A stretch of 64,000 nt of DNA from Chloroflexota bacterium (lineage in GTDB: Bacteria > Chloroflexota > UBA11872 > VXOZ01). Under the pieces are notes generated by a model, which ran no database searches, was not told the origin of the DNA, and worked only from the letters and a program-made list of their open reading frames with translations. Within the stretch, counting starts at the first letter, position 1, and each line of letters starts with the position of its first letter. The position numbers and the translations under genes were made by a program. Positions 8,915 to 63,894 of this stretch are shown one piece after another. The stretch spans positions 108,842 to 172,841 of the forward strand of contig OZ219801.1 in assembly GCA_964291655.2 (NCBI GenBank), in the 5' to 3' direction.

Positions 8915-9739
8915 ATGGGGAATCTCTTGGGTCTCGAGGCGGATAAAGCTCTTCTACAGGGAAAGCACATCAAGGGGCTCTTGCTCGACCTGGACGGTAC
9001 GCTCTACTTCAAAGGTGTGCAGATTCCGCGCGCCGACCAGGCTCTCGTTGCGCTCAGAGAGATGGGAATTCGGGTGTGTTTCCTTACAAATATCGACTCG
9101 AAAACCGCGAGTACCATCCATCGCGAGTTAGCTGCAATGGGCTTGGCGATTGAGAAAGAGACGATATTCAGTGCCGCCAGCGCCGGAGTGCGTTTCTTGA
9201 TGCAGCGCCCTGACAAGCGCAGCTATTGTCTGGTCTCAAACGAATTGGCCGCCGAGTTTGCACCTTTTCTTGCCGGTGAGGGTGCCGTAGACTATGTAAT
9301 TGTCGGAGACTTTCGCGATTCCGTAAGTTACGAAGTCCTCAACACGGCCTTCCGCCATGTCATGGAAGGCGCTGAGATCATAGCTCTACAAAAGGGTAGG
9401 TACTTCGTGAACACTGAAGGTAAAAACCTGGATACGGGAGCCTTCGTGCAGCTCTTGGAGTATGGCTCCGGCAAGACTGCCAGAGTCCTTGGGAAGCCGT
9501 CACCGGACTTCTTCAGAATGGCAGCAGCGCAGGTTGGATGCTCTCCCGAGGAAATCGCCGTTGTGGGAGATGACGTGACTACTGACATCGTTGGAGCACG
9601 TGCGCTAGGCGCGCTGAGTGTGCTGGTCCGCACAGGAAAGTACTCAGATGAGACTCTGGCGTGCTCCGCCGTCAAGCCCAATCTGATTGTAGATTCCATC
9701 GCCGACGTGCCACAGCTTCTTGCTGAGATTGCACGATGA
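8915..9739 (+). CDS. HAD-superfamily hydrolase, subfamily IIA-like
   Basis: DxDGT nucleophile motif (LLLDLDGTLY) and the C-terminal VVGDDVTTDIVGA motif. ATG 8915 chosen because the track start 8828 overlaps the preceding gene. Confidence 0.75.
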   Translation: MGNLLGLEADKALLQGKHIKGLLLDLDGTLYFKGVQIPRADQALVALREMGIRVCFLTNIDSKTASTIHRELAAMGLAIEKETIFSAASAGVRFLMQRPDKRSYCLVSNELAAEFAPFLAGEGAVDYVIVGDFRDSVSYEVLNTAFRHVMEGAEIIALQKGRYFVNTEGKNLDTGAFVQLLEYGSGKTARVLGKPSPDFFRMAAAQVGCSPEEIAVVGDDVTTDIVGARALGALSVLVRTGKYSDETLACSAVKPNLIVDSIADVPQLLAEIAR

Positions 9740-9888
9740 AGGGTGCGCAAGCGCGCACAGCCGTAAGCACATGGGCTTCTTTCAGTAGGAATCATTGCGA
9801 GCAGACCATGGATTCAAGGGAGGCAACAAGCAAACAGTTCAGAACTAGCAGACCCTGACTTGATAGAATCGAAAGGCTGCATCTTGTA

Positions 9889-9978: not shown

Positions 9979-10230
9979 ATTGTCGAACTGCGTCGGGCGT
10001 GCACCTGTGCGGCGTTTCGCAAGTTCGCACGGTGTAAGTCAAATTCTACTTACTTGAGAACTGATCCTATGAATAGAGGGAGTCTTGAATATCGGATACA
10101 TGGGGCACACCCTTAGGATGAATGTTTTCACTCCCCGGGGAGACCATGCGTGAATCCGACCAGAGGCAAGCTAAATGCTCACTCTCTCTGGGAAGTACAC
10201 TGCAAAACCCAAACCTGTTGGCGAGGAAAC

Positions 10231-61644: not shown

Positions 61645-61723
61645 GGTTTCCCTCTACTCTTTATTGCCCCCATTTCATGTCGACTCAAGTACTAGCGCTT
61701 ACCTCAAATAAGAACATCATTCC

Positions 61724-61743
61724 ACATGAAACAGGTTTCATGT
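61724..61743 (-). terminator. Weak terminator candidate downstream of the 541-codon ORF
   Basis: Hairpin acatgaaac-ag-gtttcatgt. On the - strand it is followed by a moderately U-rich stretch (ggaatgatgttcttatttgagg). Confidence 0.3.
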
Positions 61744-61843
61744 TGAGAAGTCAAAGGAAGTCTTCCTGCTTCACCCAAAAGAGGAGGTCGAGTCTCGGAG
61801 GCGTAAGTACAGTCCTTGGACATGACCCAAGTCAACGCCACAA

Positions 61844-63469
61844 TCAACATTCAAGCACTTGCTTCCCTACAGAATCCAGCCAAGCCTTGTTCCAGGCTAT
61901 GCGCCACTTCCCCCTCGTCTCAATCGTAGAATCCAAAATATCTGGCGCTCTAAGGCGACTGATCCTCTGAAGTCTCACTGTACAGACCAAGTCGTCACCA
62001 AGACCGAAAATTGAGAGCCTTCGCCGCCGGTAATCTCGTCTGAATACGTTGATTTGAGCATAACCAATCGGCAGCAATCCCGCGAAGCTAAAGGAGCTTG
62101 TTCTACGCGCATTTCTCTTACCATTCTTGACAATGCGCCCACAGTTGTCACGGATAATACCTACCAGTTCTTGATCGGCAACTCCCTCAAGCACGACACT
62201 GCCCCACAAAACGGCACCCCAAGAGTTACGGTGCACGGTGGCGGATCTACAATGCATTAATGGTTTTCCTAAACTCTCCCTAAACTTCTGGACGGCAATT
62301 GGAATAGTGATGCGAAAGCTCGTAGTGTAAGTGTCCACCTTAGCGAGTAAAGCAGGCAACTTAGGTCGAGGCTCATAATAGAAGATATTGTCTTCAAGAA
62401 CTCCCTGATACGCCGAAAGAGTATCTGCTCCACTTTCTCGCAAATCCCTTAGCTTTTCCCCGTCAAAGGCCGCCCAGCCCTGTAATGCCTTACGCGAGTG
62501 CAGCGAGAAAAAGTATCGGTCGTATCCTGGCGCCAGACTCTCACTCAGAATGCCACTTTGGACAGTTGACCAGAACACTTTCCACTTGTCCCGCGAATCT
62601 GGCCTCGCATAGATAGTCAACTGCGATCCACCAGCGATCTCAGCTTCGACGCAACCTTCAATTGCCCACCAGGGTGCCCTAGTATGTTCTTGAAGTACCT
62701 CAATCATGAACTCTCGCGGCCGCACGTAATCTTTACTCGGTGAATTAAGTAGGAACACTTTGAGCGCCGCAGCTATTCCATTGCATGAATCCAATAAGCC
62801 ATCGAAGAGTTGGATCAAGTACCCTGTGTCGAGGGTTTCCTCATTTCCTTTCAGGTCGCGGTAGCGAATCCCTCGTTGTAGAAAAGTAATGCCACCGTGG
62901 GCGACGCCATTGCGGACTGTGTGTTGATAATATTCACTTAGATGCTCTTCACTTTGGCCCTCTATTTCGTCAACAATCGACCAGACATTTAACCCACTTA
63001 CACACTTACCGCGATGTAGCCGGGAAAAGTAGGCTAAGGGCCGAAGAAGTGGAGTAAAGACCCCCTCCACCAATCGTAGGTACGCTGGGTGGACATGTTT
63101 GTCGATCACTCTGATCAAGTCATATTCGTCTCCCTCAGAAAGGCGGCCGTCGTGCCATCCTTCCATGTTTAGTTCCCTAAGGAAGAGCAATGCACGATTG
63201 ATCTCTAAACTGAACTGAGCGAGGTATTTCCTCAGTTGTTTCGAACATATCTGATCCTGTCTTTGGAGCCAGTACAGATAAGTCTCATAGGCATCTCTAT
63301 CGAAGAATTTCTCGGGACGGCTGTGAAGATATCGCCGTAGTACCAAAGAGTGATGCTCTGATTCTGCGCCTAGTATGGTGAATACTCTAAGGATACGCGC
63401 TATATCGCGTTGATCTCGTTCCTTAGTAAGTGGGTTTTGAATTTTATCTAAAAGCTTCTCATTTAGCAT
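61844..63469 (-). CDS. Orphan 541-aa protein; helix-rich N-terminal half with an R-x4-H (HEPN-type) motif; function unknown
   Basis: Longest ORF in an AT-rich island, ATG 63469. Motif TVRNGVAHGG (R186..H191, nt 62897-62914). No other family signature recognised and no Shine-Dalgarno. Confidence 0.6.
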   Translation of the reverse strand: MLNEKLLDKIQNPLTKERDQRDIARILRVFTILGAESEHHSLVLRRYLHSRPEKFFDRDAYETYLYWLQRQDQICSKQLRKYLAQFSLEINRALLFLRELNMEGWHDGRLSEGDEYDLIRVIDKHVHPAYLRLVEGVFTPLLRPLAYFSRLHRGKCVSGLNVWSIVDEIEGQSEEHLSEYYQHTVRNGVAHGGITFLQRGIRYRDLKGNEETLDTGYLIQLFDGLLDSCNGIAAALKVFLLNSPSKDYVRPREFMIEVLQEHTRAPWWAIEGCVEAEIAGGSQLTIYARPDSRDKWKVFWSTVQSGILSESLAPGYDRYFFSLHSRKALQGWAAFDGEKLRDLRESGADTLSAYQGVLEDNIFYYEPRPKLPALLAKVDTYTTSFRITIPIAVQKFRESLGKPLMHCRSATVHRNSWGAVLWGSVVLEGVADQELVGIIRDNCGRIVKNGKRNARRTSSFSFAGLLPIGYAQINVFRRDYRRRRLSIFGLGDDLVCTVRLQRISRLRAPDILDSTIETRGKWRIAWNKAWLDSVGKQVLEC

Positions 63470-63472
63470 TTG

Positions 63473-63676
63473 TCAACAACCAACAAGAGTGATGTTCGAA
63501 GAGTGAGTCACGAGAAACCGCAACAAATGAAGCATTTGAACAATCAGTGACCCGAGAGACTCTAGTCTCTGCCACAACCATGCGACAGCCACCTTGAAGT
63601 AGTCGCTCGAATCGCCTCTTGCTATTTCCATTGCAGTCCAAAGATCGTGAACATTGTAGACGGTGGAATTCTCCAA
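63473..63676 (-). CDS. 67-codon ORF in the same frame as the 541-codon ORF, separated from it by one TGA plus one sense codon
   Basis: TTG start (first in-frame ATG at 63631). Ends TGT TGA CAA ATG. Could be a small coupled gene or the severed N-terminus of a 609-aa protein. Confidence 0.3.
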   Translation of the reverse strand: MENSTVYNVHDLWTAMEIARGDSSDYFKVAVAWLWQRLESLGSLIVQMLHLLRFLVTHSSNITLVGC

Positions 63677-63894
63677 CAGGTGGTTAGAGCCTGGCTAAAT
63701 TGAGGAACGCCGAGTACCGGAATCATGTGTGTATTGTGTACCACGTTTAGTTAGAAATACAAGCAGTTGTTGGCTTAAGAATCTGATTGTACAATGATTC
63801 TTGGAGGGAATTTTCTCTCGCCTCAAATACGATCAGGGTTAGGAGAAAGCAAAATAGCACTCCTCTCTGCTTCTGCCGCTGCTAATGTGACTTG

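What the first reader, a model, noticed from the sequence alone, without database searches (positions are those of the whole stretch)
61844..63469. Orphan 541-aa protein with an R-x4-H (HEPN-type) motif: candidate uncharacterised defence or abortive-infection nuclease
The only recognisable feature is TVRNGVAHGG (R186-H191, nt 62897-62914), located in a helix-rich N-terminal half. The R-N-x-x-A-H form is the catalytic signature of many HEPN RNases, such as the Abi_2/AbiD-F, Swt1-like and RiboL-PSP-type families. The remaining 280 aa has no motif I can place. Three further points fit stand-alone anti-phage genes: foreign composition, a stand-alone arrangement with at most a tiny upstream partner ORF, and the absence of metabolic neighbours in the same transcription unit. 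The evidence is a single short motif, so this is a hypothesis, not an annotation.
Basis: inference. Interest (0 to 1): 0.75.

Follow-up and report, generated by a model that had tools for sequence, protein, structure and literature searches.

The report
Unannotated HEPN-motif mobile cassette protein
This gene is not an orphan: it belongs to a large, unnamed, horizontally spreading protein family whose few invariant residues form a HEPN-RNase-like catalytic motif in a fold matching no solved structure, making it a plausible but unproven new single-gene defence or conflict nuclease.

Summary
The ORF (61844-63469, minus strand, 541 aa), the TVRNGVAHGG motif (R186-H191, nt 62897-62914) and the low GC are all real. 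"Orphan" is wrong: the family has at least 536 clusters at 50% identity across about 20 phyla, archaea included. Its architecture is a constant ~540 aa, and it has no Pfam, NCBIfam, PADLOC or PHROG hit. Across 76 sequences down to ~21% identity, only six positions are invariant: P52, E135, R186, N187, H191 and D227. That matches the HEPN pattern of R-N-x3-H plus an upstream acidic residue. However, confident AlphaFold models (pLDDT 88) match no HEPN or other solved structure. A profile comparison with a genuine HEPN family aligns only the 11-residue motif. The gene has no conserved partner and is AT-richer than its flanks in 36 of 38 loci. It moves as a single-gene unit. In three genomes it is a textbook integron cassette. 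Elsewhere it sits inside a type I R-M locus, beside toxin-antitoxin genes, or in IS-rich or mobilisable regions. In this window the neighbours are metabolic genes. Verdict: a new protein family, most likely an autonomous HEPN-like RNase effector. HEPN membership and a defence role are both unproven.

The parts
61844..63469 (-). Complete ORF, 541 aa plus stop codon. It is a member of a large unannotated protein family of constant ~520-560 aa architecture.
   Evidence: ORF list. 317+ homologues. 536 clusters at 50% identity. dN/dS 0.09-0.27.
62684..63469 (-). N-terminal all-alpha domain (aa 1-262). It carries five of the six family-invariant residues.
   Evidence: AlphaFold models with pLDDT 87.6 and 88.2. 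Invariant positions.
62897..62914 (-). R186-N187-G-V-A-H191: an invariant R-N-x3-H motif at the C-terminal end of the short helix 183-191. It is followed by G192-G193 and a three-strand beta meander.
   Evidence: Coordinates. Invariance. Secondary structure.
63065..63067 (-). E135 codon. This invariant acidic residue lies in the long helix 115-152 and is the candidate equivalent of the HEPN helix-2 acidic residue.
   Evidence: HEPN criteria from PMC3710099.
62789..62791 (-). D227 codon. It is invariant and part of a D223/D227/N230 polar stripe on helix 215-241. This stripe is not part of the canonical HEPN site.
61847..62683 (-). C-terminal alpha/beta domain (aa 263-541). It is basic (pI 9.7) with conserved Arg and Trp residues (W268, R481, R483, W526). 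No sequence or fold relative was found and there is no internal repeat.
63470..63885 (.). AT-rich 416-nt spacer between the gene and the divergent MMPL transporter gene. No conserved small ORF, tandem repeat, Rfam family or unusual RNA structure was found.
61645..61843 (.). 199-nt spacer to the co-directional AP_endonuc_2 gene. No terminator and no attC-like hairpin was detected, so the window copy is not in cassette form.

Best explanation
The gene encodes an autonomous single-protein effector that spreads horizontally as a one-gene unit. Its N-terminal helical domain most likely carries a HEPN-like, metal-independent RNA-cleaving site built from R186, N187 and H191, assisted by E135. The basic C-terminal alpha/beta domain most likely binds the RNA substrate or senses the activating signal, and keeps the nuclease silent until then. 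By analogy with other HEPN enzymes, the active form would be a dimer that brings two R-N-x3-H motifs together. The likely biological role is a conflict or defence function: growth arrest or abortive infection on invasion by a phage or other mobile element.

Shown: the gene is real and under purifying selection; the motif plus E135 is invariant; the gene has no partner; it is mobile, including as integron cassettes; it has foreign composition.

Inferred: RNase chemistry, dimerisation, autoinhibition by the C-terminal domain, and an anti-phage role.
For: Only P52, E135, R186, N187, H191 and D227 are invariant in 76 sequences down to ~21% identity. The same residues are invariant in a 26-sequence set that includes an archaeal copy at 27% identity. 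The motif-plus-meander segment is the most conserved part of the protein.

The HEPN criteria in PMC3710099 are Rx4-6H at the end of helix 3, a polar N/D/H after the R, and an acidic residue in helix 2. These map onto helix 183-191, N187 and E135 in helix 115-152 of the models. The best local hhalign alignment to a genuine PF18735 HEPN family pairs RNgIAHG with RNKAAHG (P=0.023), whereas the C-domain control gives P=0.35.

The gene is stand-alone: no neighbour family recurs across 48 loci, and no upstream ORF or RNA partner exists. It is mobile and foreign. GC is lower than the flanks in 36 of 38 loci, p=4e-7. Related copies share only the ORF plus <=45 nt upstream and 10-120 nt downstream. Integron cassette structure is seen in L039, L040 and L041, and attC-like sites are enriched next to family genes, p=0.010.

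Conflict-type contexts include a position inside a type I R-M locus with SLFN/AlbA and ParE/RelB, a Card1 nuclease neighbour, BrnT toxins, an IS and ParB-MTase region, a mobC/relaxase element and an SSB/RadC/MTase/helicase block. Occasional decay is seen: an IS-disrupted copy and split ORFs. Integron cassettes are documented carriers of phage-defence genes (bioRxiv 10.1101/2024.07.02.601719; PMC12614218). The C-terminal half has pI 9.7.
Against: No HEPN fold was detected. Foldseek with the full model and with the N-domain model gave no match at E<=0.001 in the PDB or BFVD. HEPN structures were absent apart from Csx1 at E=4.5, TM 0.11. No Pfam, PADLOC or NCBIfam HEPN model matches. One member gave a motif-only hit at E=0.24. 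hhalign similarity to PF18735 is confined to 11 columns, probability 2%.

The motif helix is only 9 residues long, and a beta meander is inserted before the next helix. Additional conserved acidic and His residues (H106/D107, D223, D227, N230) are not part of a canonical HEPN site and could indicate metal-dependent chemistry. The Ex3[KR] form of the acidic motif is absent.

The defence-island test is inconclusive. PADLOC hits are as frequent 6-10 kb away as next to the gene. The window's own context, and that of L003, is metabolic or housekeeping. The high sequence conservation (35% mean column identity) is not what I would expect of a fast-evolving defence gene (own knowledge). The family is absent from 72,556 plasmids and 50,697 phage genomes.
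Confidence: 0.4

Rival explanations
1. The protein is an enzyme with different chemistry. It would be a metal-dependent nuclease or phosphohydrolase whose site is built from the conserved acidic and His residues (H106/D107, E135, D223, D227, N230), with R186 and H191 as phosphate-binding or general-base residues. On this reading the R-N-x3-H resemblance to HEPN is convergent.
For: E135 and D227 are invariant. H106, D223 and N230 are at least 90% conserved and D107 is nearly so. They form i/i+4/i+7 stripes on helices 115-152 and 215-241. No HEPN fold or profile similarity was found. A few all-alpha metal-dependent phosphodiesterase (PDE10) entries appear among the noise-level N-domain hits.
Against: Those PDE hits have E about 3 and TM about 0.1, which is noise. 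No HD or other metal-hydrolase Pfam model matches any of 50 members at E<=10. The three contiguous invariant residues are exactly the HEPN signature, including the polar N after the R. The spatial clustering of these residues could not be examined because the model coordinates are not exposed.
Confidence: 0.2
2. The protein is a cassette-borne accessory gene with a non-defence role. Examples would be an RNA-processing, RNA-repair or stress-response factor, or a nucleic-acid-binding regulator, that is simply advantageous in some niches.
For: The conservation is higher than I would expect for a defence gene (35% mean column identity over ~20 phyla). The architecture is constant. In the window lineage the gene is stably syntenic across three Chloroflexota species, next to metabolic genes. 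Most integron cassettes have unknown, diverse functions (10.64898/2026.03.17.712381 and PMC10661359 abstracts). The PADLOC near/far comparison shows no enrichment.
Against: The distribution is sporadic: 48 loci among 185,579 species representatives. GC is foreign in 36 of 38 loci. Copies are pseudogenised. The gene repeatedly sits next to R-M, TA, IS and other nuclease genes.
Confidence: 0.2
3. The protein is the toxin of a toxin-antitoxin or other two-component system whose partner was missed.
For: HEPN toxins often pair with MNT antitoxins (PMC3710099; PMC13000451 abstract). TA genes occur near some copies.
Against: No neighbour family recurs across 48 loci. No conserved upstream small ORF or DNA element exists. 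There are no tandem repeats and no Rfam RNA. The cassette and the comparative boundaries enclose only this ORF.
Confidence: 0.05
4. The protein is itself a recombinase or transposase that mobilises its own gene, making it a single-gene selfish element.
For: The unit that moves is essentially the ORF alone. In L003 and L059, direct duplications of 97 and 177 nt of the 3' end of the upstream gene bracket a 1.9-2.3 kb unit that holds only this gene and no integrase.
Against: There is one copy per genome (48 distinct loci from 49 matches). No terminal inverted repeats are present. No recombinase or transposase family matches. In L039, L040 and L041 the mobility is explained by attC sites, which are substrates of integron integrases acting in trans (PMC12614218). 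Most loci have no flanking repeats.
Confidence: 0.05

Closest known systems
HEPN superfamily RNases with an R-N-x3-H motif (RiboL-PSP-HEPN PF18735, Abi_2/AbiD-AbiF, Swt1-type)
   Same: An invariant R-N-x-x-A/G-H-G motif lies at the end of a helix, with a polar N after the R and an invariant upstream acidic residue. The domain is all-alpha. The gene occurs in conflict-type genomic contexts, and integron-associated HEPN domains are already known (PMC3710099). hhalign pairs the two motifs.
   Different: There is no detectable fold or profile similarity beyond 11 residues. The motif helix is very short and is followed by a beta meander. An extra conserved acidic stripe (D223, D227, N230) and a WHD motif are present. 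The domain is N-terminal, ~260 aa long, and fused to a 280-aa basic alpha/beta domain that I found in no HEPN family I compared.
PrrC/RloC-type anticodon nucleases embedded in type I R-M loci
   Same: This is a single-polypeptide effector with an Arg/His-based nuclease site plus a large second domain. One homologue (L058) lies between hsdS and hsdM of a type I R-M locus. The classical position of prrC in such a locus is own knowledge.
   Different: There is no ABC-ATPase or other NTPase domain. The R-M embedding is seen in only one of the loci examined. No sequence similarity was found.
Integron gene cassettes encoding phage-defence genes
   Same: In L039, L040 and L041 the gene is a single-ORF cassette. 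It is bounded by the GTT of the upstream attC R' box and followed by its own ~110-nt attC hairpin. Cassettes are documented reservoirs of defence genes (10.1101/2024.07.02.601719; PMC12614218).
   Different: At 1.6 kb the ORF is, to my knowledge, long for a cassette gene. The window copy and most other copies are not in cassette form. No integron integrase was identified on the short contigs. No defence activity has been tested.
CARF/SAVED-HEPN effectors (Csm6/Csx1) and Cas13
   Same: The logic is a two-module protein: a sensor or binding domain plus a HEPN-type motif. Csx1 was the only HEPN structure listed by Foldseek.
   Different: That hit is noise (E=4.5, TM 0.11). The domain order is reversed, with the motif domain N-terminal. 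No CARF, SAVED or Rossmann-like match was found, and there is no CRISPR association. The second R-N-x3-H-like string (R408-H413) lies in a beta strand and is not invariant.

Membership tests
HEPN superfamily | Conserved Rx4-6H motif | tested here: met
   R186 and H191 (spacing x4) are invariant in the 40-, 26- and 76-sequence alignments.
HEPN superfamily | Polar residue (N, D or H) immediately after the R | tested here: met
   N187 is invariant. Criterion from PMC3710099.
HEPN superfamily | Second conserved acidic residue in helix 2, typically as Ex3[KR] | tested here: inconclusive
   E135 is invariant and lies in the long helix preceding the motif helix. Position 139 is not K or R, and proximity to the motif could not be measured because no coordinates are available.
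HEPN superfamily | [quoted passage not shown] | tested here: inconclusive
   The secondary-structure order is compatible: H115-152, an insert at 153-182, H183-191 ending in R..H, then GG and a meander, then H215-241. However, helix 3 is only 9 residues long, and the 3D packing was not inspected.
HEPN superfamily | Four-helix up-down bundle superimposable on solved HEPN domains | tested here: not met
   Foldseek against the PDB with the full model and with the N-domain model (pLDDT 88) gave no hit at E<=0.001. The only HEPN entry was Csx1 4eog at E=4.5, TM 0.11. Foldseek may be less sensitive on helical bundles (own knowledge), so this is a failed test, not a disproof.
HEPN superfamily | Profile-level sequence similarity to an established HEPN family | tested here: not met
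   Pfam gave 0 hits for the window protein. Among the 50 members scanned (40, 10), there was only one motif-only hit, to PF18736 at E=0.24. hhalign against 110 PF18735 sequences aligned 11 columns with probability 2%.
HEPN superfamily | Metal-independent RNase activity yielding 2',3'-cyclic phosphate | not testable with these tools
   This requires biochemistry.
Integron gene cassette | attC site: an imperfect single-strand hairpin with R''/L''...L'/R' boxes, unpaired bases and a conserved AAC/GTT triplet | tested here: met
   Met for homologues L039 and L040: ~110-nt hairpins with z = -3.4 to -6.0, YTAAC...GTTAG ends and compensatory stem changes. L041 is included through the cassette boundary at an upstream attC and one further attC-like site on the same contig (positions 22-94, E=3e-5). 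Criteria from PMC12614218. Suggestive in L023, L046, L053 and L013. NOT met for the window copy.
Integron gene cassette | Cassette boundary at the G|TT crossover of the preceding attC | tested here: met
   The upstream junctions of L039, L040 and L041 are unrelated on the left and converge exactly at C|GTTAGAAT, about 15-20 nt before the start codon.
Integron gene cassette | Integron integrase (intI) and attI at the head of the array | not tested
   The contigs are 4.8-6.9 kb and no intI was sought. All ORFs on L039 are co-oriented, and L040 has 3 attC-like sites in 4.8 kb.
Known anti-phage defence systems (PADLOC-DB 2.0) | Match to a model of a known or candidate defence protein | tested here: not met
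   0 families at E<=10.
Known anti-phage defence systems (PADLOC-DB 2.0) | Enrichment next to known defence genes (defence islands) | tested here: inconclusive
   Individual loci are clearly in defence or mobile regions. However, PADLOC hits are as common among ORFs 6-10 kb away as among adjacent ORFs, and no genome-wide baseline was available.
Type II/VII toxin-antitoxin (HepT-MntA-like) | Conserved adjacent antitoxin gene | tested here: not met
   There is no recurrent neighbour in 48 loci and no conserved upstream ORF.

The most novel reading that the evidence does not exclude
This is the founding member of a structurally new class of single-protein nuclease effectors. The two-domain fold has no solved relative. 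Its active site either converged on, or diverged beyond recognition from, the HEPN R-N-x3-H/E constellation. The gene is disseminated across about 20 bacterial and archaeal phyla as a one-gene integron cassette or islet, and acts as a previously unrecognised anti-phage or anti-plasmid immune gene.
Probability: 0.3. Interest if true: 0.75.

Novelty: new variant of a known kind. Interest (0 to 1): 0.55.

Why it matters
If the prediction holds, this would add a widespread single-gene immune or conflict effector that current annotation resources miss entirely (Pfam, NCBIfam, PADLOC and PHROGs all return nothing). The family has at least 536 clusters at 50% identity across about 20 phyla. It occurs mostly in uncultured environmental lineages, where defence repertoires are, to my knowledge, poorly charted.

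It would also give a new fold context for the HEPN-type catalytic motif, which bears on whether that site arose more than once. In addition, it is a clear example of a long (1.6 kb) functional gene circulating between phyla as an integron cassette.

The family is experimentally tractable. Copies exist in cultured strains: Rubritalea spongiae KCTC 12906, Desulfuromusa kysingii DSM 7343, Geomonas sp. Red32 and Methanosphaerula subterraneus EG. Only five or six residues need to be mutated for controls.

Tried and rejected
- **SAM lyase / SAM-AMP lyase similarity of residues 396-457.** The 40-sequence profile gave E=0.2. The hit vanished with the 76-sequence profile, so I rejected it as chance.
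- **L042 as an 823-aa fusion protein.** Rejected. It is a copy interrupted by an IS transposase.
- **L059 mobC fragments as two halves of one gene split by insertion.** Rejected. Both match the full MobC profile, so there are two mobC copies followed by a relaxase.
- **Upstream small ORFs at 63459-63676 as partner genes.** Rejected.
- **RNA antitoxin or structured RNA in the upstream spacer.** None found.
- **attC in the window copy or its Chloroflexota relatives.** None found.
- **Internal duplication of the C-terminal half, or a second HEPN domain there.** No signal. R408-x4-H413 lies in a beta strand and is not invariant.
- **HEPN comparator from a remembered HepT-like consensus.** It recovered only fragments of PDB chains, so I abandoned it. 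A profile against a single HEPN sequence had no power.
- **PADLOC near-versus-far neighbour comparison.** Uninformative, because the summary counts families, not proteins, and the 'far' set also lies inside islands.
- **Plasmid and phage databases.** No matches. IMG/VR gave one ambiguous hit at the edge of a prophage contig.
- **Literature search.** No description of this family turned up.
Full report
**Observation**

The window contains the ORF as described: 61844..63469 on the minus strand, 541 aa, ATG start. TVRNGVAHGG occupies residues 184-193. R186 to H191 maps to nt 62897-62914. GC is 0.48 in the gene and 0.45 in the 416-nt upstream spacer, against 0.58 for the rest of the window. Pfam, PADLOC, NCBIfam and PHROGs each return nothing, even at E<=10. 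A sequence search of the PDB is also empty.

A bare R-x4-6-H string carries no weight. This protein alone has four, and RN..xH strings turn up in spurious ORFs elsewhere.

**Not an orphan**

The protein has 317+ full-length homologues at 48-88% identity. An exhaustive profile search finds 536 clusters at 50% identity with E<=1e-3, of which 225 have E<=1e-30. Almost all are 520-560 aa with the same end-to-end architecture, the shorter ones being fragments. Source annotations call every named member 'hypothetical protein'.

Among GTDB species representatives there are 48 loci in about 20 phyla. These include Chloroflexota, Planctomycetota, Gemmatimonadota, Acidobacteriota, Bacteroidota, Verrucomicrobiota, Desulfuromonadales and Gammaproteobacteria, a candidate-phyla-radiation lineage, and archaea. 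A few are cultured strains: Rubritalea spongiae, Geomonas sp. Red32, Desulfuromusa kysingii and Methanosphaerula subterraneus.

The window itself is Chloroflexota-like. Its closest relative, at 88% identity, shares the flanking MMPL and AP_endonuc_2 genes. dN/dS against relatives is 0.09-0.27.

**Conservation**

In 40 sequences, R186, N187, H191 and G192 are invariant. In 26 divergent genomic copies down to 27% identity, they remain invariant. In 76 representatives down to ~21% identity, only six positions are invariant: P52, E135, R186, N187, H191 and D227. A further set is at least 90% conserved: Y47, N101, H106, I189, G192, D223, N230, E258, W268, Q283, R481, R483, G489 and W526. The motif-plus-beta-meander segment is the most conserved part of the protein.

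**HEPN test**

The HEPN reference paper (PMC3710099) defines the domain by five features:
- a four-helix up-down bundle of two alpha-hairpins;
- a variable insert between helices 2 and 3;
- Rx4-6H at the end of helix 3, running into the loop to helix 4;
- a polar residue (N, D or H) after the R;
- often an acidic residue in helix 2.

Two AlphaFold models were built, one full-length (pLDDT 87.6, pTM 0.87) and one of residues 1-262 (pLDDT 88.2). Both show the following order: a long helix 115-152 carrying E135; a loop and short-helix insert at 153-182; a short helix 183-191 ending in R..H; then G192-G193 and a three-strand meander; then helix 215-241 carrying D223, D227 and N230. On paper this order is compatible with HEPN.

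The direct tests fail, however.
- Foldseek of both models against the PDB, and of the full-length model against BFVD, gives nothing at E<=0.001. The only HEPN entry is Csx1, at E=4.5 and TM 0.11.
- No Pfam HEPN model matches any of 50 members, apart from one motif-only hit at E=0.24.
- hhalign against a genuine RiboL-PSP-HEPN family aligns just the 11-residue motif, at probability 2% and P=0.023. That family was built from a neighbour gene in L044 and confirmed as PF18735 by its homologues' labels. The C-domain control gives P=0.35.

Membership is therefore unproven. The claim that the protein works like a HEPN enzyme rests on the invariant E...R-N-x3-H constellation. The extra conserved WHD(105-107) motif and the D223/D227/N230 stripe leave room for metal-dependent chemistry. 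Model coordinates are not exposed, so residue clustering could not be checked.

**C-terminal half**

Residues 263-541 form an alpha/beta region that is basic (pI 9.7) with conserved Arg and Trp residues. It shows no internal repeat at the sequence level and has no sequence or fold relative. A weak SAM-lyase match disappeared with a broader profile.

**Context and mobility**

No neighbour family recurs across the 48 loci. Nothing upstream is conserved. The window's upstream spacer has no tandem repeats, no Rfam family and no unusual structure. The gene is AT-richer than its flanks in 36 of 38 loci, by a mean of 9.3 GC points (Wilcoxon p=4e-7). Related copies in unrelated flanks share similarity only from <=45 nt upstream to 10-120 nt downstream of the ORF, so the gene moves as a one-gene unit.

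In L040 the gene is bracketed by ~110-nt repeats. L039 carries the same element downstream of the gene. As single-stranded DNA these fold into long imperfect hairpins (z = -3.4 to -6.0). Their ends read YTAAC...GTTAG, they contain bulged bases, and the stems show compensatory changes. The upstream junctions of L039, L040 and L041 diverge to the left and converge exactly at C|GTTAGAAT. All ORFs on the Desulfuromusa contig are co-oriented. These are the hallmarks of integron attC sites and cassette boundaries (PMC12614218).

A generic attC heuristic finds sites in 8 of 94 family-adjacent segments, against 3 of 176 controls (p=0.010). Candidates lie on both flanks in Rubritalea spongiae. The whole-locus background rate is not negligible, so only L039, L040 and L041 are firm. 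The window copy has no attC.

Other contexts:

| Locus | Context |
|---|---|
| L058 | Between hsdS and hsdM of a type I R-M locus, with SLFN/AlbA, ParE and RelB |
| L060 | Next to an AAA-protease and a Card1 nuclease |
| L007, L059 | Next to BrnT toxins |
| L057 | IS elements and a ParB-methylase |
| L059 | mobC/relaxase element |
| L056 | SSB/RadC/methylase/helicase block |
| L044 | RiboL-PSP-HEPN gene directly upstream |
| L039, L032 | NYN-LOTUS RNase gene directly downstream |
| L042 | Copy disrupted by an IS |
| L020, L046, L047 | Split ORFs |
| Window and L001, L003 | Metabolic or housekeeping neighbours |

A PADLOC near-versus-far comparison was uninformative. The family is absent from PLSDB plasmids and INPHARED phages. 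It has one ambiguous hit, at a prophage edge, in IMG/VR.

**Interpretation**

The best-supported reading (confidence about 0.4) is an autonomous single-protein effector. It would have a HEPN-like RNase site in the N-domain and a basic C-terminal domain that binds substrate or senses a signal. It spreads horizontally as a cassette or islet and serves a conflict or defence role.

The rivals are:
- a different (metal-dependent) chemistry, about 0.2;
- a non-defence accessory function, about 0.2;
- an unrecognised toxin-antitoxin pairing, about 0.05;
- self-mobilisation, about 0.05.

The 97-nt and 177-nt duplications of the upstream gene's 3' end that bracket the gene in L003 and L059 remain unexplained.

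**Novelty**

This is a large family that is invisible to current annotation. Its confidently predicted fold has no solved relative, and it carries a HEPN-type motif. I file it as a new variant of a known kind (motif-defined nuclease effectors on mobile cassettes), not as a HEPN family member. Interest is moderate to high (0.55): it is a well-defined, testable candidate, but no function has been shown.

Noticed in passing
L003 7680-7775 / 10010-10106; L059 7743-7919 / 9605-9781: Direct duplications of 97 nt (94% identical) and 177 nt (93% identical) bracket a 1.9-2.3 kb unit that holds only the family gene. They copy the 3' end of the upstream gene (surE and mobC respectively). No integrase and no attC is present. 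This is an att-like signature of unknown mechanism. Shorter flanking repeats occur in L026 (34 nt) and L034 (41 nt).
   Followed up: partly
L044 9266-9928 (+): A genuine RiboL-PSP-HEPN (PF18735) gene lies directly upstream of the family gene in a Marinimicrobia genome. Its own family has more than 4,000 members.
   Followed up: partly
L039 4987-5754 (+); L032 11900-12634 (+): A NYN plus OST-HTH/LOTUS RNase gene lies immediately downstream of the family gene in two unrelated genomes. In L039 it is the next integron cassette.
   Followed up: partly
L058 3114-15313: A type I R-M locus (hsdR, hsdS ... hsdM) is split by inserted genes. These include the family gene, an SLFN/AlbA_2 gene, a Peptidase_M78-HTH gene and RelB/ParE modules. 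This is a classic defence-island layout.
   Followed up: no
L042 7672-11026: The family gene is interrupted by a DDE-transposase IS element right after the RNAIAHG motif. L020, L046 and L047 carry split ORFs, which could be frameshifts or assembly errors.
   Followed up: partly
window 63152-63157 (H106-D107) and 62780-62803 (D223-N230): There is a conserved W-H-D motif in the loop after helix 87-101, and a D223/D227/N230 stripe on helix 215-241. Neither is part of the canonical HEPN site, and together they may indicate metal binding.
   Followed up: no
window 62231-62248 (R408-H413): A second R-N/S-x3-H-like string (consensus CRNAxxHRN) lies in a predicted beta strand of the C-terminal domain. 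R408 and R414 are conserved in close and mid-range relatives but not across the whole family.
   Followed up: partly
window 61673-61731: A 21-nt imperfect inverted repeat (76% complementary, 17-nt loop) lies in the spacer about 30 nt upstream of the AP_endonuc_2 start codon. It is not attC-like and does not fold significantly better than shuffled sequence.
   Followed up: partly
L061 368-7928: This is the only IMG/VR hit. The family gene lies at the extreme edge of a 42-kb viral contig, next to a CI/LexA-type repressor, a 706-aa ORF and AAA ATPases, which looks like a Mu-like left end. It could be prophage edge cargo or host flank.
   Followed up: partly
L060 3290-6924: In a Campylobacterales genome, an AAA plus Peptidase_M41 protein and a Card1-type (CARF-associated) endonuclease lie just upstream of the family gene. 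This may be a cyclic-oligonucleotide-responsive defence module.
   Followed up: no
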